A stretch of 63,272 bases of DNA, the filler included, from Rhabdomonas costata (Eukaryota), in assembly GCA_019059605.1 (NCBI GenBank). It is 44 parts of 44 records of this genome, joined end to end, with 100 filler letters (N's around TTAATTAATTAA, not from the genome) between each part and the next. Parts side by side here need not be neighbours in the genome. Positions count along the whole stretch, not along the records: positions 4,324 to 5,664 come from JAHMHO010018847.1; 43 more parts are not named here. One strand, 5' to 3'. Every line of letters starts with the position of its first letter. Position 1 is the stretch's first letter. A model generated the notes under the pieces. The model made no database searches, was not told the origin of the DNA, and saw only the letters and a program-made list of their open reading frames with translations. Shown in pieces: positions 2,542 to 62,227 of this stretch. The translations under genes were made by a program, and so were the position numbers.

Positions 2542-4323
2542 GTGTGTATATCACCTCCAACCTCTGAAAAATCTCTCTGATCAGTTTTCATACCTCTTAC
2601 CGGGTTTTCTCTCCTTTTTTGGCCTTTGTTGAGGTTGTCTGTACTTGAAAGTTGATTTTCCAGGTGCAAGAGTTCCCGAAGTGCGTATCCAGAAGGGAAT
2701 CATAAAGCTCTTTCAAAAAATCGACGTGCACAAAAAAAAGCACAACCCACAGCCGTGGACAGGCTTAAGAAGTTCCAGAAGTNNNNNNNNNNNNNNNNNN
2801 NNNNNNNNNNNNNNNNNNNNNNNNNNTTAATTAATTAANNNNNNNNNNNNNNNNNNNNNNNNNNNNNNNNNNNNNNNNNNNNGTGGTTGGGGCCTTCGAA
2901 AAGAAGAAGTCGAAGGCAAATACCGGAGGGGTCAATCAAAAGGATTCACAGCGTACCACAGAGCACGTAGGCAAGCTAAAGCACAGCCAAAGATTAAAAG
3001 GGAACCGCTTTGACATTGAAATTCCCGCGCCGGTCCCACCATACCCCGGTGGGCCGGGATCCTTTACCCCAAGGGGCTCGGCATTCCATGCATCGGGCAC
3101 CTTGTGCCCGATTGGCTTGTTGCGGCCCCCTTTTTCTCCCTGCTTTGCATTTTGCTCCCTTGCCGTTCCCGTCAATGAAGATCGGCCTCATCCCAATGGC
3201 GCCGCTATGGAGAATTTTACCCCGATCCCTTGTTGTGGATTGGACCGAGCAGCGGTCCGCATCCCCCGGTCTTAGTTTCCGGGTTTCCGGGCGAAGCAGC
3301 CATCCCGGTAGCTGGTTACCAAGCCGGTTCGTGACAAAAATCAAATATGTCATTTGGCTACAAGACAAAAGCAACCAAATCACACTTATCCAAAACGGAA
3401 TAAGGCACCTTTAAGCCCAATCATCGCCTGAGCATCGGGGGAATGGCCCTTGACATGGCCAAGGTTGCGCACGGAATAAAGGAATTCATCACAGCTGCTG
3501 CCTCGCAAGGTATTCTTCGGCAGTGTGTGTGCCGAAACCCCCCGAAACAGCAACGACGAAAACCTGGAAGTGGGAGAAACGGGGGTGTTTCCTGTAACAG
3601 TAACAAGAGAAAGGTGTAAACAAGGAAAACAGCCACGGGGGGTCCCCGTGGTGCTCACCACATGACAGCTCAGAATGCCCCGCGGGTCGCAGGGTTGAAG
3701 GAAAACTCGCTTAAAAATCCTGCATAAAATCCTGCTCACCCCTTCCTACAGTTGATGCACTCTGCTTCCCACAAGTGGAAAGAACGCGGTTGTTTCCCTG
3801 CAGCGTATCATTTAATTCCGCCGCCGCCGCCGCCACCACCACCAAAACCCAGATCCCTCCAAGCGCAAGTCGGCTATGAAGCAGGGCAAGGTGGAGCAGA
3901 TAAGCTTGCGTTTGGGTTGGAAAATTCCATCGGTTGAACGGTTTTTTGGCATTTTTAAGAGAGACCTGGTCATCGACGAGCGGAGCAAGACTGACCACAA
4001 GACGATTGTGTCAGACTGGACTCGAGAATCCTCTCTCTATCTTGGTTGCTTGGTTGTGATATGCACTTTTCTGAGTCTGGGGGATTCGCTCTGTGCCATT
4101 TTAACAAAATATCTTCGTTATATATATGACGAAAAGGTGGTGATGTGCAATCCAACCAACGTGTGCACAACAATGTTTTTGATTTATTGCTGATGCATGG
4201 GGCATAAGCAATAAATCAAAAACNNNNNNNNNNNNNNNNNNNNNNNNNNNNNNNNNNNNNNNNNNNNTTAATTAATTAANNNNNNNNNNNNNNNNNNNNN
4301 NNNNNNNNNNNNNNNNNNNNNNN

Positions 4324-4661
4324 AGCTTGGCCTCGACAGGGCTGCCCACCAAGGTGGAGTCGGGATAGGAGAAGGTGGTGCTCGCCTTGAAGCTGTACGT
4401 CACAGCAAAAGTGGCCAGGGTATCAAACCCCTTGGGCGGGGTGAAGCTCGCGGAGCTCAGCACAGTGCTGGGGAGGTCCGGCTCCCACACCACGATGGGA
4501 ATGGTACACGTTTGGGAGTCAAAGGGGTAGCGGTGGAAGTTCATCGAGCAGGCGGTCATCCCGGTGACCTTGCGCTTCAGGTAAAACAGAGGCGAGGCCA
4601 GCTCGGCGGGATTGAACACCACTCTGAGGTATTCATTCAGGCCGGTGGCGGTCAGGTCGGC
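4324..4661 (-). CDS. Pentameric ligand-gated ion channel (Cys-loop receptor) extracellular-domain exon
   Basis: Acceptor tctttAG, then ADLTATGLNEYLRVVFNPAELASPLFYLKRKVTGMTA-CSMNFHRYPFDSQTC-TIPIVVW. This is C-x13-C with YPFD at 4506..4550. GC3-rich codons match other host exons. Confidence 0.82.
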
Positions 4662-6648
4662 CTAAAGACAGCAGCAGCAACGACAAAAGCCATGTCTGCA
4701 CATTTCCGTTGCGCGAGTGCAGAACAGCCATTATTTCTCTTTTTTTGAGGCCAGCACGAGCACCTAAGCAGGCCAAGACGAAAGCCCAGGCTCAGCGTGC
4801 AGGCCGAGAAAGGGCCAAAAAGGCCCGTTTGTGCAGAAAAGCCCCCAGTAGGCCCAAAATAACCCGAAAAACACCTCTAGCTAAGCCTAAAACGAAGCAT
4901 TCCGGCCCACTGTCGAGCCAAGGCGCAGCCGAAAGCTCAGGCTCAGTAGGTAGCCCTGCAAAGGCACAAAATGCCCCTAAAAAGCCCGGGGTCTCGGCAC
5001 AAGGAAAGGAGGGACGACGAGGTCAGGAAGCGGCCAACCAACTCATCTCAGGAGTGCTATCATACCGCCTGATGAGGTCCATGTTTGATCTCCGGGGTCC
5101 GGTCCAATTCAGGGGGGTCATCTGGGTGATGTCACCTAGCCTCAACGCGTGAGATTCAAGCCTACCGGACCTCGGACAAGAGAGCGCACCCCACAGTGAT
5201 TCCGCCAAAGCTCAAAGTAAACTTGAAGAACCATTCACGAGGGTCTGACCTCGAACCACACAAAGTGGAGCGAGGGACGCGCGAAACTGGTCTGTGCTGG
5301 CCAGTGAGTTTTGGTGTTCAACTATGTGCCTCTCCCGCAACCAAACACAGTGAGGTGGAAAGAAGAACCATTACCCCATAACGCCTTTCGGAACTTGCGC
5401 GATACCGCTTTATGCAATGAATAATTTTTTTCACGAAGCTCCAGGTGGCTCCATTCCCAAAGGGACGTTCTGAGCTGCGACACTTCCCGACATTTGGACA
5501 GCAGTGCTGGCCGTTCAGGATAGACAACAGGGGTTTGTGACGACCCTTAACAGCACTTAACTCAGCCCACTATGACTTATGACTCGCGGAAATCTAAAAG
5601 CAAATTACCGCCTGACCACTTCCGACCCTGGGCTCTGCAGGCGCGACATACATCCCAAACCACANNNNNNNNNNNNNNNNNNNNNNNNNNNNNNNNNNNN
5701 NNNNNNNNTTAATTAATTAANNNNNNNNNNNNNNNNNNNNNNNNNNNNNNNNNNNNNNNNNNNNAAATCGGAGCGCAACAACCACAAAAAGGGGAAGTGT
5801 GCACTAGGGAGCGTGTCGCTGTAGTTTTCCACAGCTTATTAAAAAACCCGTTGCACGAGATGAAATGCCAGGATTTGTGGCCACTTTGGATGAATGGATG
5901 GAATATATGCGCGGTACAGAGTTCACACTGATAACAGAAGTGCTCTATTTTTAGAAAATTCTCGGGCCTTTGCCCAGGTTAATTGTTGAAAAGACACGAC
6001 GCGAAAACGCAGAGATCCGCCGAGACACGGCGAGACACTACACCAGGTTTTGGGGGTTCCGGTAAAGAACTTGGTTTTCACATCGACGGGTTTTGCACAA
6101 TCTCCGTCGAAAGCGATGGCCTGATCGTCAATCATCCAGGCGGCGTCATAGATGTAGGGTGAAGGTGCGCACTTAATCGGCCCGGTTCCAAAGACAGGGT
6201 GGGTGGTGCGAATTCCCTGCTTGGGTTGCCAGAAGCGTTTTGGCAAAGGGGCTGTTAGTTTTATGGTTTCTTTTGGCCGGCTCGCCTTTTTATTTCTCCG
6301 CCTTGGACGGCGGGGATTTGAGCTCCCACGGGTCCGGAATATTGAAGACCACATCGGACGCCAAGCTGGCAAACCAAAAGAACCGTTGGTACCGACAACG
6401 TTGGTGAAAAGAAATGTTAATAAAATGGGCGTGGGATGGGGGCCGTGGGGAGGAAACCTTTCGCATTAAAAGAGAAAGCGGCGGACGCAGGTTACAATGC
6501 CTGGGCTTGCACCTTGTTACGAAGGCAGTTCCGACAACCCTTGTTGACCGAAGAAGAACATTTACGAGGGGCCTCCACCTCGGACCACACCGTCAAAAAA
6601 AAAGCTAATTTACCCAGCGCAGCCCCGACCACTCAACCCCTGTTGTAG

Positions 6649-10612: not shown

Positions 10613-13212
10613 TACAACGAAGCAGGGAACGAGGGGCTAAAATGCTGCGTTGAAAAAGTAAAAGAGCAAAGAAAGCCGGTGTGTGCACAGGACGCAAGAT
10701 GAAGCTTCTATGTGGATGAAATGAGTAGCTGGTGGTTTGGGGAAGAGAAACCACGCGGACCGATGGTGCGGGTCTCTTTGCACCGATGGTGCGGTCGCAG
10801 CAACCAAAAAAAAAAAGACAGAAAGGCACCCGTAGGGACAGCAGGAGAAGAAACAGAGCTCAGTGAACTCAGGCTCAGGTGACGGAGGGCGAAATAAAAA
10901 CAGGAAAGGAATCACCACAGCCACAGCATGCCTGCACAAACCAGGTGCCGACAGTAGCAGCGACACCTAGCACGCGGTTGTATGCACACAGGATGCAGAC
11001 AGGTTTGAACCATTGTGGCAGCAACATCCCAAAGATCGAGTCGGTGCAGCAGGCCCAACCGCAACCACGATGGCGCGACGCTGATATTTTTGCTCGCTTT
11101 TTGAGGCGGTTTACAGTTGTAAAGTTCTTGTGTGTGGACCGAGGACAGAAACCTGCATGGGCAAGACAATGCTTGCTTCTGTTGTGGCCCGCGTACCACC
11201 TTAGGGTGGGGAGTGACGACGTGGTGATTTCGGTCTTCGGTATTTGGGTTCTGGATTTCCCTCTGCGGTCTTTGGTTATTGGGGTTCTGTCTTCGGGGTT
11301 CTATTAATGGCCCCACGAATACGAACGTAGGGAGTATGAGTGGGGTATGTATCACGAGCGCAGCGCGTAGAGGGCCACCGGCAGGTAGCATTCTGGGTCG
11401 GCCTTCAGCCTCCCTCCACACAACCCCNNNNNNNNNNNNNNNNNNNNNNNNNNNNNNNNNNNNNNNNNNNNTTAATTAATTAANNNNNNNNNNNNNNNNN
11501 NNNNNNNNNNNNNNNNNNNNNNNNNNNGGTTGTTTTTCTGAGCATCGTTTTTGGCTTTCGTGTGTGGTGTTCTCATCGTGCATTGCCGTGGTGGGATTTC
11601 TTTTTTCTCGCTGCCCGCTACTTGCCTCTTTCCTCCATTTTGTTCTTCCCTGTGACCCCGGCCGCTTCATTTGGACCCTGTGCCACAAATTTGTTACCCA
11701 CCACTCGTGTTTTATTTGTTTGCACGCGAGTATCTCATAGAATGTTAGTGAAGTTTCTCTCCGAGAATGCGCATTGATAACATCACAATGTTGTTGTTAG
11801 TTTGTCGCCGCTCCTTCCTACATCGTGATCATTTCGTTCGACTCAATTTTGCTTCTATTTCATCACGTCCTGCTGAATTTGACATAATGTTATACACGTT
11901 TACTGGATCAAAATCCATTTGTTATGGGCTTCAGGTTTCTTTGCAGCAAGTGAAGCCCAATCCATCGAAAATCGGATCCATCATATTCGCAAAGATGGTC
12001 ATCTATTTTCTCTGCGGCGTTATTTGGTTTGCTCTTGGAGAATAAATCAGACGCCACCGGTGAACTACATATTGTTGGCACAGGTTTTTTCAATCTTTTA
12101 GGTAAGCGTGCTAACTGGAACAACCGAAGAAATACAGCAATATTTATATTGCAAGAGATCCTGGTGTACCTTATCTCGCGGATAATTTTGTGTCAACTGT
12201 GGTGTTTCGCTTCCGTTTGTTTTTGCTATAAAATAACATTCTTATACACTAATATCTGCTTAGCAGGGCAGAATGTTAAATGGTGCGCTTACATTGCCAC
12301 ATGCGCGCAGACATATTTTATGAAGTAATTCAATTTTTAGGGCACATTACACCGATCCACACTCAGAAGGTAGAATAATAAAGGACTAATTTCCAGATAA
12401 AACATGGCAAATCACCACTGCACCAGTGTTTTCACAGTGGATGCTGTTGGTGTAGAATAGTATTTGATGTGTTTGAGATGGTGTGGTGTCTTTTAAATAA
12501 TGTGCAGTTTTAGGCTTCCAGTGGTTGTGCTGTTTTGTTGTGCTATTTTTAATGTGCGTCACGTTGCGTTGGTATGCGTGTTTATCAGATTTTCAGCATC
12601 TTACAAAACACACTGCATTTATTTGGAGTCAATATCTTTGTCATAAAAGCTTAGATAGAGCAGATTCTGAATTTTATATGTCCACCAAAACTTCTCAAAT
12701 ACAATTAAAAATGAATGAGGTGAAAAGGTGAACAATAATATTGAGCAATTGTACTATATGCGAGAACAGCGTACTATATGCACATACTAAGCAATAGGAA
12801 ATCACACAGGTATTACCAGAACAATTGATCATTGCAGCTGCATAATAACAATAACAAAACAACCAAACNNNNNNNNNNNNNNNNNNNNNNNNNNNNNNNN
12901 NNNNNNNNNNNNTTAATTAATTAANNNNNNNNNNNNNNNNNNNNNNNNNNNNNNNNNNNNNNNNNNNNGTGTTTTTTTCGGTTGTGCCTTTCTGAGGTGA
13001 CGCGGACAATATAATGCCCTTCTCCCAAGGCCCCAGCACCATACCCAATGACAAAACTTATCAATAAATCTCCCAACACCCAACCACCACAAAAACCAGC
13101 GCCTGCCGCTTTTTGAAACCGAGCCGTGAAGGGGCACTGGACTATCACGGGATTGGGATGCAGCACCGGCCCACCCATCTTCCAATTTCCGCATCCTTGA
13201 ATCGCCGCATAC

Positions 13213-15850: not shown

Positions 15851-17189
15851 GTTGGTTGGCTGAAGGACCTGAAGTACTGCGTGTTTGGACTGGGTGACAG
15901 CAGCTACTACTTCTTCAACTACACCGCCAAGCTGGTGGACGCCCGCATGGCGGAGCTGGGGGCGCAGCGCCTGGTTCCCACGATGTTCGGGGATGACGGC
16001 GACGAGGACAAGTTTGAGACCAAGTTCAATGAGTGGATCCCCACGGTGTGGCAGGCTTTGGGCACAAAGACGCCCGAGAACAAGCTGTTCGAGCCCACAA
16101 TCACGGTGAACCTCACCCCCGATGCCACCCCCGCGGAGTGGTCCTTCAGCCACTCCACCCCGGTGCAGAGCAAGACGGGTGCTGTGCGGATCACCCCCAA
16201 GGACTACCAGCGCAACTTCGTCACCATTGAGTGGAAGACGGACCTGCCCTACAGCATTGGGGACTCTCTGGGGGTGTTCCCGGAGAACAACAAGCAGTCC
16301 GTGACGGATTTCCTGACCTTCTACGGGCTGGACCCCAAGGCCGTGGTCACGATTGACAACCGCGGGGTGCGCGAGCTTCCTGAGTGCATCACCGTGGAGA
16401 ACCTGTTCACCAAGGTCCTGGACATCCTGGGGAAGCCCAACCGCCGCTTCTACCAGAACCTGGCCCACTTCGCCACCGACGCTGGCGAGAAGGAGCGCCT
16501 GGTGCAGATGGGCAACGGGCAGGGCGAGTACAGCAAGGTGTTGGCCGAGACCTACCACTACGCGGACATGCTGAAGCTGTTCAAGTCCGCCAAGCCGCCC
16601 CTGCAGTACCTGATCGAGATGGTGCCCAACATCAAGCCGCGGTACTACTCCATCTCCTCCTCCCCCAAGCACACCCCTGGTGAGGTGCACAGCTTGGTGC
16701 TGATTGACACCTGGACCACCCCCTCTGGCCGCTTCCGCACGGGGCTGACCTGCACCATGCTGGAGAAGCTGCAGGCGGGCCAGGTCGTGCAGGGCTGCAT
16801 CCACCCCACGGCCATGGAGTTCCCCGACAGCGACGAGCGCCCCAAGGTGATGGCGGGCATCGGCAGCGGGCTGGCCCCCTTCGTTGCTTTCCTGCGCGAG
16901 CGCTCGTGGAAGCGCAAGCAGGGCATCAAGGTGGGGCAAATGGTGCTGTACTTCGGTAACCAGTACGAGAAGAAGGAGTACCTCCTGAAGGAGGAGCTCG
17001 AGAGCTACGTCAAGGAGGGACTGCTGCACCTGCGCACGGCGTTCAGCCGAGATGATCCCAAGAAGAAGGTCTACGTGCAGGACCTGGTGAAGAAGGACCC
17101 CGAGCTGCTGTACGACCTCCTGGTGAAGCAGAAGGGCTCCGTCTACGTCTGCGGCAACCGCAACATGCCCAAGCCCGTGCAAAACAACA
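15851..17189 (+). CDS. PNO: Pyruvate:NADP+ oxidoreductase, C-terminal NADPH-cytochrome P450 reductase-like module (flavodoxin + FAD + NADP domains), partial at both ends
   Basis: Open across the whole contig. Motifs VFGLGDSSY, PRYYSISSSP, GSGLAPF and AFSRDDPKKKVYVQD. Segments such as GLTCTMLE.LQAGQVV.GCIHPTAMEFPD match my recollection of Euglena PNO rather than generic CPR. Very high GC3. Confidence 0.9.
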
Positions 17190-18458
17190 NNNNNNNNNNN
17201 NNNNNNNNNNNNNNNNNNNNNNNNNNNNNNNNNTTAATTAATTAANNNNNNNNNNNNNNNNNNNNNNNNNNNNNNNNNNNNNNNNNNNNGGTGTTGGGGT
17301 GAAGGTATTTTAACACCATCTTGGTGGCACAAAAAACAATTCTGCTTTACAAAAAGAGCTTGACGTGACATTGTACATTCCCAGACGACCCACATTCTGC
17401 AGCGCAAAGCTTTCTGCACAGGGTGGATTTTCCTTCATTCAGGCAAGAGGGTACCAAGGCACACGCGGACACTAGACACTCAGTCCGGCCCCAGTATTCC
17501 ACCTGAGTTCTAGAAGGGGGTACTTCACTACTCAACTCTCTCTTTAGAAAGACGAAGAACAGATACTTGTTGCAACTTAGCTGGTCCTTAGCTGGAAAAT
17601 TCAGCCACTGCAAACGCACGTAACATGCACAAGGTAATATCGTGGTGGATGTCTCTTCTGCTTCCAGTGAGCTTTCAATTTCTCTCCCGCTGCCTGGCGA
17701 CTTGTCGGGGTGCGGATTCGTACCCGTCTGCTGGGCGAAGGGAGGAATTAAAACCGCCTTATAGGAACCTCAACCTCTGGGTTTGCCCAGCTTGCTTAAT
17801 TGCTCGGTGGCCTCTCTTCACCACTTCTTCTGCCTGGTGCTGGAATCCTTAGGTCCTCGTCTTCTGACCACGCAGGGCTCCAACTATAGCGCAGTCTCTG
17901 TCCCCGTCTTCGCTGGGGCACGCGACTTCAGGACCTTTTTGAATCCTTATCTTCTCTCTGTAGCTTTCGCAGATCTCTTCAGGTACACACACTCCACACA
18001 CTCCACACACCGCACAACTGCAGCGCAGTAGCTGATCGTTTTATGGTTGCTGCTGCCTGCGGTCTCCGAGGGGGTGCAAATACAGGTCTCCAGTTTACCA
18101 GTGTTGGGCGATTGGTAAGCCAAAGGGCTTTCAAGGCAATTAGGAACGTTCACACTAACAAACACAGACACACACATACATGAGCGACAAAATCCTCAGT
18201 AACATGCGACGCCCAGTATGGGTGGACACAACATCGGCGAGTATGGGCGGCCTGGGAGCTGCCGGGGAGAGCAGTGAATCAGGGAGCAGTGTACCAGGTC
18301 CCCCCCCCCGGATCGCCGGTAAAGTGCAGATTACGAGACTCATGCATCAGTTGCGAACGCGGCAGCTGCTGCGAGAGCAAACAGCCCAGTGCCCTGCAGG
18401 GGCCTTCAGGTCGCAGTCGATTTTGAAACACACGCACACACACAAACAAGGCACACAC

Positions 18459-18629
18459 CATCCCCTCGGTGCTCCACGTGCCCATCCACTGCACGGCGCA
18501 CTTCGTGAACAGCGCCGGGTTGGACTGGCACCGCAGCTGGAAGCTGGGGTTCAGCGGGTCCATCACCAGCACCACGTGCAGGCACCGCGCCACGCGGGAC
18601 ACGAAGTACGCGAAGGGGCCCCCAACCCC
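18459..18629 (-). CDS. DYNC2H1: Cytoplasmic dynein-2 (IFT dynein) heavy chain, AAA4-region exon
   Basis: GPFAYFVSRVARCLHVVLVMDPLNPSFQLRCQSNPALFTKCAVQWMGTWSTEGM|GT. LH.VL.MD...F...C.SNPAL..KC...W...WS is characteristic of dynein-2 heavy chains. Confidence 0.85.
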
Positions 18630-59489: not shown

Positions 59490-62227
59490 GTATGTCCTGG
59501 AGCCCTGCATGGTGTGTTCTGGAAGCGGGGTGAGCGAATCCTCTTGATGTACTAAGCAGTGAGTCCTGCATTCTGCTCTATCGTTTGATGAAGTCCCGGT
59601 GAACGCAGTCTGACTGCACAGAGAGTGTCAAAAGATGGAGGCTGGGTTTCTTGTCTGAGTTTACGTTCCCACCAGTACGCTCCCATTAGATGGTTAAACA
59701 TGTATTTGTCTGTATTGTGTTGCCTGGGACTTCGCTTTGGTTCCAGTTAGAGATTTTGGGTTTATCCTTTTGCTTTCTTTCTCGGGTCACAGAGGAAGGG
59801 AAAGGAATGTCCACCGCAAACTTGATAAAGGCCAGAAGACAGCCCGCTGCCTTTGTTGTGGCTTGAACGAGAGTGTGACTGTTGGGCAGAGCAATATATC
59901 CCCCCCCCCCTGGTGCAGCTTGCAACGCAGGAGAGGGCACAGCCACCACCACCTCCTCCTCCCGTCACTCAAAGACTATGTTAACCCAGGATATAATGAA
60001 GGACATAGGACATAATGAACAAACCTTCACCTAACTATCCCGCGGGATATTGAATCTACCATGAAGTGGTTTGGGCTCAAACTTTCTTGGGTGTTGAGTT
60101 GGATATTTTGCCCTCCTCCCCACCCACTAAACTTAGCTCGCGGCGCAGCATGCGCGGGCGGCAGCGATGAAGGCAGAGCTGGCGAGCCAGCAGGGAGAGG
60201 CCAAGGTGGATCCCGGGGCGGTGTACGAGACGGACCTTCTGCGGAGGTCCCATGCGTGCGAGTGCCCATGTGCTGTGTGCGTTTGAGGAGTCTTTCCATT
60301 TTCCCTACTCAAATCCAAACCCCTTTATCTTAACCCTTAATCCTTACCCCTGCATCTCCAAATTCCCCAAACCCCCCAACCACACCCGACACANNNNNNN
60401 NNNNNNNNNNNNNNNNNNNNNNNNNNNNNNNNNNNNNTTAATTAATTAANNNNNNNNNNNNNNNNNNNNNNNNNNNNNNNNNNNNNNNNNNNNGGTTTTT
60501 TTGCTGCAATGGCTCGTCTTCTACCTCTCCATTCTTGGTGGCTTTTCTTCTGTGGACGCGCCAAGCGTTCCACTCGCCGTAACTTCTCACTATGCTTTCT
60601 GGATTGCGGTAAAGAGCAGGGACACAAACAGCATTCTGTACCCGAGCAGAACAGGTTGCGGTGTTGGTATGATATTGGTACGTGGGTATTGATATTTATC
60701 TGCCGGACGACCACTGCAGCTCATTTGATTATTCCGTTCGCTCCCCCTGTCTCCACAACATGGTACTCTGGTAGGCTACAGTGCAAATCGAGAATTACCT
60801 TGCACATTCTTGCACACGCTACCAAGGTTCTGCGGCATGACTATGCCGTCCGCTTCACTTCAAGGGTGAGCAAGCATTTCGGACTTCGTAGCGAAAAAGA
60901 AAAGCGAAAAAAGCGAACTGAGATGGCCCATTTTTACCCTGCCCGCTTCTTTGCATTGACGTTTCTCATGTTTTTAACATTGAACATTGGATTTTCAAAA
61001 TTCACTTATAATGTGAAGCGGGCCATATGTGAGAGATTTATCCAACAGTGCTCCAAACAACTTCCAGGACTCGCAGGTTCCCCTCACCATCTTTGTTTTT
61101 GTTGTAACAGACAACCTTACGTTGAAAGCTCAGCCGAAACGAGAATGGGAAACACAGGCACCGTTGTTACCCATCGAAGCAGTGGCAGCGATTGCCATGC
61201 CTTTGAGTACCGTTGGGGGCTGCCCGGGTGGTGCTTTTTGGTTGTTGGGGTGATCATGAGCATTAGTTGGAGCAGGGAAGCCAGAACGGAGGAAATCGCC
61301 CCCTTTATGCACTCGCAGTGCCTTGCAGTGACATCCTCTCAGAGCTGCATGTTAACAGTAACAACGCGGACATTGTTCGCTACGAACTCACGATGCATCT
61401 ACTAATTCGCACCAAAAAATCAGTTTTGCTGACTCCGTCTGCAGTCTGGTGGGTGTGTATTGGGCAGAATGGACATTTGCATTTGGTGAGGGAGGGGACG
61501 GCAAGCGTTTTTCGGTGCTTGGCATTTGGCTTGGGTTTTGGATTGAGGCCAGAGGCCCGGCTTCCTGAGGGCGCGTACAAAAAAAGGAAAAGTAAATTTT
61601 CACATGTCACGTTATGGTGATGCAATACTTCGATGAAATTCTTTTGAATTGTCTCGTTTAACGCCCTCAAAAGAGTGAATCAATAGCCCGCGTCAGGGGT
61701 GAGTCATTGTTTATCCACCTCATTCCTCGGGCTTTCTCTGCCTTTTTGCGCTGACTTCTTCAACCAAAGAGTGCACCTCTCCCTTTCTTGCACCCTTTCT
61801 CTCCTTTTTCCTTTGCGCTGTGTGCGGTTCATTNNNNNNNNNNNNNNNNNNNNNNNNNNNNNNNNNNNNNNNNNNNNTTAATTAATTAANNNNNNNNNNN
61901 NNNNNNNNNNNNNNNNNNNNNNNNNNNNNNNNNAACACCCCCGTTTCTCCCACTTCCAGGGTCTCGTGGTTACTGTTTCGTGCACCTATTCCTCTGCGTC
62001 CTCCCTCTGCTACATTTTTCCCCTTCCTCACCTGACATCAGCCAGCGCACTAACACGTTGTCCCCTGTGAAGATGTCAGTGTTGGATTTGCTTAAAGGCA
62101 ACTGAAACTATTGATCGTGATGTGCATCATTCCTCGGAGTACTGACAGTTTGATGTTTGCGTGGAGAACTCTCACTTTTATCCTCGGAGAGGGACTGTGG
62201 CCAATCGTTTTTTGTGCTGCCCACCAG

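What the first reader, a model, noticed from the sequence alone, without database searches (positions are those of the whole stretch)
4324..4661. Cys-loop pentameric ligand-gated ion channel exon in a euglenid
Seen: a spliced, host-like GC3-rich exon encoding NEYLRV...LFYLKRKVTGMTA-CSMNFHRYPFDSQTC-TIPIVVW, an exact C-x13-C loop with the YPFD proline motif and the expected beta5-beta6-beta7 context. Established: the disulfide-closed Cys-loop typifies animal GABA-A/glycine/nicotinic receptors, prokaryotic pLGICs (GLIC, ELIC) lack it, and protist homologues are only patchily reported. Inference: this flagellate has neurotransmitter-receptor-like channels, perhaps a chemosensory or electrical-signalling family. 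That bears on whether the Cys bridge is ancestral, convergent or horizontally acquired.
Basis: partly seen in the sequence, partly recalled or inferred. Interest (0 to 1): 0.8.

Follow-up and report, generated by a model that had tools for sequence, protein, structure and literature searches.

The report
Cys-loop receptor exon fragment, euglenid
A short genomic contig from a Rhabdomonas-like euglenid flagellate carries part of a gene for a neurotransmitter-receptor-type (Cys-loop) ion channel, a kind already known from a few other protists but apparently not yet from this branch of eukaryotes.

Summary
Window 4324-4661, minus strand, is an open 112-codon stretch with GC3 0.84 and an exact C-x13-C loop containing YPFD. 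It starts at a conventional AG acceptor (4662-4663). Its other end is cut by the contig end, not by a splice site, because the window is 44 unrelated ~1340-bp contigs joined by N spacers.

The fragment alone falls just under the Pfam threshold for Neur_chan_LBD (23.6 bits against 26, E 4e-5). A profile of its three nearest relatives, built without it, matches it at E 1.6e-15. Those relatives are 420-440-aa environmental proteins with PF02931 and PF02932. As a profile they hit GABA-A and glycine receptors at up to E 4.9e-21.

The euglenid attribution holds. Another contig encodes a protein 444/446 identical to a named Rhabdomonas costata protein, and the exon's codon usage matches that contig.

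Not shown: the transmembrane domain, the N-terminal half, a transcript, and function. Protist Cys-loop receptors were published in 2016 (PMC4795631). This is therefore a new member in a new lineage (Euglenozoa), not a new kind.

The parts
4324..4661 (-). Partial coding exon, 112 codons. It covers roughly the second half of a pLGIC extracellular domain, from before the Cys-loop to just before the pre-M1 strand. It is cut at 4324 by the contig end.
   Evidence: Open frame with GC3 0.84. PF02931 E 4e-5. Relatives' profile positions 165-258 of 420 match at E 1.6e-15. Alignment A1/A5 to P0004, P0006 and P0007.
4506..4550 (-). Cys-loop: C38-x13-C52 with Y45-P46-F47-D48 (the Pro-loop proline).
   Evidence: codons TGC at 4548-4550 and TGT at 4506-4508 on the minus strand. 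C38, Y45, P46, D48 and C52 are invariant in A1. The stretch aligns to the Cys-loop of GABA-A pi.
4662..4686 (-). 3' splice acceptor (AG at 4662-4663) with a pyrimidine-rich tract upstream: ...ttgtcgttgctgctgctgtctttag|GCC.
   Evidence: Minus-strand sequence read. The in-frame TAG formed by the acceptor closes the ORF. Homology to relatives begins at residue 2 of the ORF.
4662..5664 (-). Upstream intron, incomplete (at least 1003 nt, running to the contig end). No further pLGIC-like coding piece lies in any frame.
   Evidence: hmmsearch with all filters off, relatives' profile against all six-frame ORFs of 12 aa or more, found nothing else on contig 4 or on the other 43 contigs. The two longest other ORFs of the contig have no Pfam hit. 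No tandem repeats.
4224..4323 (.). Artificial spacer between contigs (N run, TTAATTAATTAA, N run). It is not biology.
   Evidence: 43 identical 100-nt spacers divide the window into 44 contigs of 1337-1352 bp.

Best explanation
The stretch is a genuine internal exon, incomplete at its 3' side, of a nuclear gene of a Rhabdomonas costata-like euglenid. It encodes the C-terminal half of the extracellular ligand-binding domain of a Cys-loop pentameric ligand-gated ion channel. The gene belongs to a small, rarely sampled protist subfamily (P0004, P0006 cluster, P0007). Full-length members of that subfamily have a signal peptide, a roughly 230-aa beta-sandwich domain with the same C-x13-C loop, four transmembrane helices with a very short M3-M4 loop, and a P-A-R motif at the start of M2 that aligns with the PAR of the GABA-A delta subunit. 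By inference from the family, five subunits would form a channel. A small agonist (unknown) would bind between extracellular domains. The disulfide-stapled Cys-loop, with its invariant Pro, would press on the M2-M3 linker and open a pore that is probably anion-selective. Shown here: the coding exon, the Cys-loop motif, subfamily membership, and the euglenid source of the assembly. Inferred: the transmembrane domain of this gene, pentamer formation, the disulfide, anion selectivity, the ligand, expression, and a role in sensing.
For: Sequence and motif. Family: PF02931 E 4e-5 over the Cys-loop. PDB phmmer best hits are GABA-A pi (0.0039), rho-1 and GLIC. In the ESM Atlas, 29 of 30 feature hits fall in Neur_chan_LBD clusters, top score 0.97. 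In an exhaustive phmmer over 1.84 billion representatives, 5 of 9 hits carry PF02931, and three of them (P0004, P0006, P0007) align over residues 2-101 at 31-35% identity. The profile of relatives built without the query scores 54.4 bits, E 1.6e-15. The subfamily profile against PDB hits GABA-A beta1 at 4.9e-21, plus GlyR; all 60 listed rows are anionic-type receptors or constructs carrying a GlyR transmembrane domain, and PPARVGLSIT aligns to VPARVSLGIT of GABA-A delta. The profile of the ECD half alone: 38 of 39 PDB hits at E<=0.01 are GABA-A or pH-gated chloride channels. The AF2 model of relative P0004 has a beta-sandwich plus 4 helices and hits GlyR alpha3 5cfb_A in Foldseek at E 2.4e-17, TM(target) 0.70. 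Eukaryotic gene structure: homology starts directly after an in-frame stop that coincides with an AG acceptor, at profile position 165 of 420. Host: the contig 12 exon is 444/446 identical to EukProt R. costata P005594. The exon's synonymous codon choice fits contig 12 better than 992 of 1000 GC3-matched recodings. Contig GC of 0.55 lies within the range of the other 43 contigs. R. costata genes are intron-rich with GT/AG introns (PMC8219788, section 7).
Against: The fragment alone is below Pfam's gathering score (23.6 against 26 bits). The AF2 model of the fragment is poor (pLDDT 47.2), and the relative's model is only moderate (pLDDT 56.9). No transmembrane domain, N-terminal half or donor site is on the contig, and none is elsewhere in the window. 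The rest of the assembly could not be searched. No protein at 50% identity or more exists among about 15 billion proteins, a collection that includes transcriptome-derived R. costata proteins. There is therefore no sign of a transcript, and the gene could be silent or a relic. No euglenid, kinetoplastid or other Discoba homologue turned up. The link of contig 4 to the host rests on codon usage with a reference of only 446 codons and on composition. No repeat is shared with the other contigs.
Confidence: 0.72

Rival explanations
1. The contig comes from another eukaryote (a co-cultured or carried-over protist or alga) assembled together with the euglenid. The Cys-loop receptor would then not be a euglenid gene.
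For: The nearest relatives are unnamed environmental sequences, not euglenids. No homologue was found in the transcriptome-derived R. costata proteins held in the collection. Contig 4 shares no repeat with the other 43 contigs. An Atlas side hit points to a haptophyte-dominated cluster (rank 17).
Against: Codon usage matches the R. costata PNO exon better than 99.2% of GC3-matched recodings. GC and GC3 are typical of the window's other exons. The published draft of this species used sorted or microdissected cells and reports bacterial contamination only (PMC8219788, section 16), though I do not claim the window is that assembly. The exon is only 31-35% identical to any known sequence, so no specific donor can be named.
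Confidence: 0.13
2. It is a genuine euglenid locus, but a silent relic or pseudogene fragment (for example a laterally acquired piece) that no longer makes a channel.
For: There is no trace of a transcript-derived protein. No upstream exon lies within 1003 nt. Only one exon is visible.
Against: 112 codons are open, with strong host-type codon bias kept along the whole length (GC3 0.81-0.94 in all seven blocks). All subfamily-invariant residues are intact: D2, F16, P24, F26, G34, C38, Y45, P46, D48, C52, P55, P76, L104. The acceptor site is conventional. The transcriptome of that species is reported as incomplete, with 75% complete BUSCOs (PMC8219788).
Confidence: 0.12
3. It is a chance open frame whose C-x13-C/YPFD string merely mimics the Cys-loop.
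For: The Pfam score is sub-threshold, and the match to solved structures covers only about 30 residues.
Against: An independent profile gives E 1.6e-15 over 95 residues. GC3 is 0.84 in this frame only. The motif is the only one of its kind among 123 C-x13-C strings in the window. The Atlas is unanimous, with 29 of 30 hits.
Confidence: 0.02

Closest known systems
Protist Cys-loop (anionic-type) pLGICs described by Jaiteh, Taly & Henin 2016 (PLoS One 11:e0151934; PMC4795631) in Emiliania, Aureococcus, ciliates and unicellular opisthokonts
   Same: It is a unicellular-eukaryote pLGIC with both loop cysteines and the invariant loop proline. Its nearest full-length relatives carry an anion-type pre-M2 motif.
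   Different: The host lineage differs. In the main text of that paper 'Euglen' and 'Excavata' occur 0 times, and a later paper states that the inventory did not include kinetoplastid genomes (PMC9366347). I could not compare sequences with their dataset S1 because supplements are closed, so orthology to any of their sequences is untested.
Unnamed environmental proteins P0004 (438 aa), P0007 (422 aa) and the P0006 cluster (8 members)
   Same: They are 31, 26 and 32% identical to the exon product over the whole exon. They share C-x13-C, YP[FW]D, I/V-P after the second Cys, the (G/P)PKG turn, and the same strand pattern.
   Different: They are distant, so they are not orthologues from a close species. 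The exon has a 2-residue insertion after the Cys-loop (WEPDLP against DF) and lacks the GDVS motif (it has GMTA). The organisms are unknown.
Metazoan GABA-A / glycine receptor subunits (e.g. PDB 6dw0_E, 5cfb_A, 8vv0_A)
   Same: They are the best solved-structure matches for the fragment, for the subfamily profile and for the relative's model. They share the Cys-loop spacing and, in the relatives, PAR at M2.
   Different: Foldseek identity is only 15-21%. The relatives have an M3-M4 loop of about 25 residues and a long N-terminal extension. The agonist-binding residues cannot be mapped with confidence. There is no nervous system context.
Prokaryotic pLGICs GLIC / ELIC
   Same: They share the Pro-loop and the beta-sandwich region. 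GLIC chains match the fragment at E 0.012-0.017.
   Different: The window's loop has both cysteines. The statement that prokaryotic sequences lack them comes from PMC4795631. The gene has an intron.

Membership tests
pLGIC / Pro-loop receptor superfamily (Pfam PF02931 + PF02932) | Extracellular domain matches the Neur_chan_LBD profile at or above the curated threshold | tested here: inconclusive
   The fragment scores 23.6 bits against a cut-off of 26, E 4e-5, over residues 33-59 only. Its relatives P0004, P0006 and P0007 pass (37.9, 29.1, 31.8 bits), and their profile matches the fragment at E 1.6e-15.
pLGIC / Pro-loop receptor superfamily (Pfam PF02931 + PF02932) | Invariant proline in the beta6-beta7 loop (stated to be the only absolutely conserved residue, PMC4795631) | tested here: met
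   P46 in YPFD. It is invariant in alignments A1 and A4.
pLGIC / Pro-loop receptor superfamily (Pfam PF02931 + PF02932) | Beta-sandwich fold of the extracellular domain | tested here: inconclusive
   The fragment model has pLDDT 47.2, too poor to search. The model of relative P0004 (pLDDT 56.9) hits GlyR alpha3 at E 2.4e-17, TMt 0.70.
pLGIC / Pro-loop receptor superfamily (Pfam PF02931 + PF02932) | Four transmembrane helices M1-M4 following the extracellular domain | not testable with these tools
   The contig ends about 10 residues before pre-M1. No such exon lies elsewhere in the window. It is present in relatives P0004 and P0007.
pLGIC / Pro-loop receptor superfamily (Pfam PF02931 + PF02932) | Homo- or hetero-pentameric assembly | not tested
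   Half a domain is not a meaningful input for complex prediction, so no job was sent.
Cys-loop receptor clade | Two cysteines 13 residues apart flanking the loop | tested here: met
   C38 and C52, with 13 residues between them. Both are invariant in the subfamily.
Cys-loop receptor clade | The two cysteines form a disulfide | not testable with these tools
   This needs protein chemistry or a confident structure, and the fragment model is unreliable.
Cys-loop receptor clade | Groups within the monophyletic Cys-loop clade in a superfamily phylogeny | not tested
The only proxy is that 38 of 39 PDB hits of the ECD-half profile are anionic-type Cys-loop receptors.
Anionic-type Cys-loop receptors | Anion-type three-residue motif before M2 | not testable with these tools
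   M2 of this gene is off the contig. Relatives P0004 and P0007 have P-A-R aligned with the PAR of GABA-A delta. That PAR marks anion selectivity is recalled knowledge; PMC4795631 mentions a 3-residue signature without giving the letters.
Nuclear gene of a Rhabdomonas-like euglenid | The contig belongs to the same genome as contigs with species-level matches | tested here: inconclusive
   Contig 12 is 444/446 identical to the R. costata protein. For contig 4 there is only the codon-usage fit (8 of 1000 controls reach it), composition and a conventional intron border. No depth data are available.

The most novel reading that the evidence does not exclude
A disulfide Cys-loop, anionic-type pLGIC is vertically inherited in Euglenozoa (Discoba). 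Together with the haptophyte, heterokont, ciliate and opisthokont cases, this would put the Cys-loop bridge in or near the last eukaryotic common ancestor. It would also give a free-living, nerve-less flagellate a fast ligand-gated chloride conductance, usable for chemosensory control of flagellar beat or cell shape.
Probability: 0.25. Interest if true: 0.65.

Novelty: new member of a known kind. Interest (0 to 1): 0.42.

Why it matters
Where the disulfide-bridged Cys-loop arose is an open question. The 2016 inventory could not place it later than the common ancestor of haptophytes, heterokonts, ciliates and opisthokonts, and it could not exclude lateral transfer (PMC4795631). A member in Euglenozoa, a lineage absent from that paper's main text, adds an independent and deeply separated data point. 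It also adds a culturable organism in which the biological role of a protist pLGIC could be tested, and that paper notes that no biological role is known for any pLGIC of a unicellular organism. The value is limited for now: only 112 residues are in hand, and neither expression nor host origin is proven.

Tried and rejected
Searching the rest of the assembly:
- No whole genome is held.

Looking for closer relatives or the full-length protein:
- The word-index search for longer proteins scored none of 340 candidates.
- The profile search returned only P0004 itself and a Cys-less protein, P0018.
- The metagenome scan gave 5 loci out of 64 pattern matches, all matching only residues 17-56. The one inspected, L002, looks like an AT-rich metazoan-type gene.
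- None of these gave a close relative.

Exhaustive representative search: 4 of the 9 hits (P0002, P0003, P0008, P0010) are repetitive or low-complexity proteins without PF02931. I dropped them as false positives.

Structure: the AF2 fold of the fragment was too poor to use (pLDDT 47.2).

Other negative checks:
- Rfam on the whole window: 0 matches.
- Repeats linking contig 4 to other contigs: none.
- Tandem repeats in the intron: none.
- Other ORFs of contig 4, including the antisense frame: no Pfam family.

Not attempted:
- A superfamily phylogeny. 112 residues and no named reference set would not give a trustworthy placement.
- Complex prediction, because half a domain is not a meaningful input.

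Literature:
- The searches found no paper tying pLGIC or Cys-loop receptors to Euglena, euglenids or Discoba.
- PMC7947827 holds both search terms, but in unrelated contexts.
- Supplementary tables of PMC4795631 (dataset S1) and PMC8219788 could not be read and might list such a sequence.

Full report
**What the window is.**
The 63,272-base window is not one locus. 43 identical 100-nt spacers (an N run, TTAATTAATTAA, an N run) divide it into 44 contigs of 1337-1352 bp. Neighbourhood across spacers therefore means nothing. The finding lies on contig 4 (4324-5664). No whole genome is held for the window.

**Checking the observation.**
- C38 and C52 are 13 residues apart, with Y45-P46-F47-D48 between them.
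- GC3 is 0.84 overall and 0.81-0.94 in each of seven consecutive 16-codon blocks up to the last base of the contig.
- Of 123 C-x13-C strings in all six-frame ORFs of the window, this is the only one containing [FYW]PxD.
- The 5' border is a conventional acceptor...ttgtcgttgctgctgctgtctttag|GCC, with the AG at 4662-4663. Homology to relatives begins at residue 2, directly after the in-frame stop that this AG creates.
- The other border, 4324, is a contig end and not a splice site.

**What it encodes.**
- On its own the fragment matches Pfam Neur_chan_LBD at E 4e-5. The score of 23.6 bits is just under the curated 26 bits, and the match covers only residues 33-59 against profile positions 121-147 of 216.
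- Against PDB sequences the best matches are GABA-A pi (E 0.0039) and rho-1, then GLIC (0.012-0.017).
- In the ESM Atlas, 29 of 30 feature neighbours are Neur_chan_LBD clusters, top score 0.97. The tool's 'recognition' value (1863) is below the level at which such scores are strong.
- The exhaustive phmmer over 1.84 billion representatives gave only 9 hits at E<=0.001 and none at E<=1e-10.
  - Four of the nine are repetitive false positives. Five carry PF02931.
  - Three of those five (P0004 438 aa, P0007 422 aa, P0006 223 aa) align with the exon product over essentially its whole length at 31-35% identity.
- A profile built from these relatives without the query scores the exon at 54.4 bits, E 1.6e-15, over profile positions 165-258 of 420. 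The next-best window ORF has E 4.9.
- Thirteen residues are invariant across the four sequences, including both cysteines, YP.D, and the proline after the second cysteine.

The exon therefore encodes the second half of a pLGIC extracellular domain. It stops about ten residues short of the pre-M1 arginine.

**What the subfamily looks like.**
- P0004 and P0007 carry both PF02931 and PF02932.
- The subfamily profile hits 216 distinct PDB sequences at E<=0.001. All 60 listed rows are anionic-type receptors or constructs that carry a glycine-receptor transmembrane domain; GABA-A beta1 leads at 4.9e-21. The relatives' PPARVGLSIT aligns with VPARVSLGIT of GABA-A delta.
- With the profile restricted to the part equivalent to the exon, 38 of 39 hits at E<=0.01 are GABA-A or pH-gated chloride channels. 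One is a squid nicotinic-like receptor.
- An AF2 model of P0004 has modest quality (pLDDT 56.9, pTM 0.50). It shows an N-terminal helix, a beta-sandwich and four long helices. It matches the glycine receptor alpha3 at Foldseek E 2.4e-17, TM 0.70 on the target.
- The model of the 112-residue fragment itself was too poor to use (pLDDT 47.2).
- That the PAR motif indicates anion selectivity is recalled knowledge. The 2016 paper speaks of a three-residue signature without giving the letters.

**Whose gene it is.**
- Contig 12 (15851-17188) is one open exon with flavodoxin, FAD-binding and NAD-binding domains. It is 444 of 446 residues identical, differing only at the two end residues, to the EukProt protein EP00906 Rhabdomonas costata P005594. 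That protein is an 1812-aa pyruvate:NADP+ oxidoreductase. Its next relative, unnamed, is 89% identical.
- Other contigs hold pieces of a dynein heavy chain and an NAD kinase.
- The assembly therefore comes from R. costata or a very close relative, a colourless osmotrophic euglenid.

For contig 4 itself the link to the host is indirect:
- Its synonymous codon choice fits the contig-12 usage (mean log2 ratio 0.41) better than 992 of 1000 GC3-matched random recodings, whose mean is 0.07.
- Its GC (0.55) is typical of the window.
- It has a conventional intron border. According to PMC8219788 (section 7), conventional GT/AG borders are the rule in this intron-rich species.
- It shares no repeat with the other 43 contigs.
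- An animal contaminant is unlikely. The best metazoan hit (a snail protein) covers 26 residues at E 7.6e-5. A rotifer or nematode gene would have found close relatives.
- A bacterial origin is excluded by the intron and the cysteines.
- A different protist cannot be fully excluded.

**What is missing.**
- The 1003 nt upstream of the acceptor contain no further pLGIC-like coding piece in any frame, and neither do the other 43 contigs.
- The transmembrane domain lies beyond the contig end.
- No protein with 50% identity or more exists in the collection of about 15 billion proteins. That collection includes transcriptome-derived R. costata proteins. There is therefore no evidence of expression. 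The published transcriptome is reported as 75% BUSCO-complete, so absence is weak evidence.
- The word-index searches and the metagenome scan added nothing closer.

**Mechanism.**
By homology, the product would be a subunit of a pentameric channel. An agonist would bind at the interface of extracellular domains, and the Cys-loop would couple to the M2-M3 linker to open the pore. From the relatives' pre-M2 motif and their solved-structure neighbours, the pore is probably anion-selective. Only the Cys-loop-bearing half-domain is shown here. The rest is inference from the subfamily and from established knowledge of Cys-loop receptors.

**Comparison with what is known.**
- Jaiteh, Taly and Henin (2016, PMC4795631; passages read) already reported pLGICs in 22 protist genera.
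- They found bona fide Cys-loop forms in four species. All three groups (Cys-less, anionic-type, cationic-type) occur in Emiliania, Aureococcus, ciliates and opisthokonts.
- They posed the question of ancient origin versus lateral transfer explicitly.
- 'Euglen' and 'Excavata' occur 0 times in their main text.
- A later paper says their inventory did not include kinetoplastid genomes (PMC9366347).
- A 2024 survey of stramenopiles does not mention Discoba (PMC11085791).
- My searches found no paper linking Cys-loop or pLGIC with Euglena or euglenids. Supplements that I could not open might list one.

The finding is a new member of a known kind in a lineage where it has not, to my searching, been reported.

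**Verdict.**
- The exon is real and is a real pLGIC Cys-loop exon (about 0.95).
- It most likely belongs to the euglenid host (about 0.8, given that it is real).
- A functional channel is plausible but unproven.

Interest is moderate. The finding adds a deeply separated taxon to an open evolutionary question. It rests on 112 residues, and protist Cys-loop receptors as such are already published.

Noticed in passing
whole window; spacers e.g. 4224-4323: The window is a pseudo-scaffold of 44 size-sorted contigs (1337-1352 bp) joined by 100-nt N/TTAATTAATTAA/N spacers. Any reading that spans a spacer is an artefact.
   Followed up: yes
15851-17188 (+), contig 12: One uninterrupted 446-codon exon (GC3 0.92) encodes the flavodoxin/FAD/NAD(P) C-terminal part of pyruvate:NADP+ oxidoreductase. 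It is 444/446 identical to EukProt Rhabdomonas costata P005594 and 89% identical to an unnamed environmental homologue.
   Followed up: yes
18282-18629 (-), contig 13; 63059-63271 (+), contig 44: These are exon pieces of a dynein heavy chain (AAA_8, E 1.6e-9) and an NAD kinase (NAD_kinase_C, E 1.4e-15). Both are GC3-rich like the pLGIC exon.
   Followed up: partly
proteins P0006, P0011-P0014, P0016 (unnamed ENA contigs): All aligned members of this cluster of relatives end in the same short tail right after the pre-M1 motif TLTRKRG. This suggests gene callers read into an intron at that position in genomic contigs of an unknown protist.
   Followed up: no
contig 3 (about 3543-3589) and contig 44 (about 61934-61980): A 47-bp stretch with 91% identity in inverted orientation is the only similarity found between any two of the 44 contigs. 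It may be a short dispersed repeat.
   Followed up: no
11528-12868, contig 9: This contig has markedly lower GC (0.39) than the other 43 (0.44-0.62). Its origin (organellar, AT-rich intergenic, or foreign) was not examined.
   Followed up: no
4700-5000 (+), intron of contig 4: An open 174-codon K/A/P-rich frame (4628-5149 +) runs through the intron. It has no Pfam match, non-host codon usage (score -1.0) and no tandem repeat, so it is probably non-coding.
   Followed up: partly
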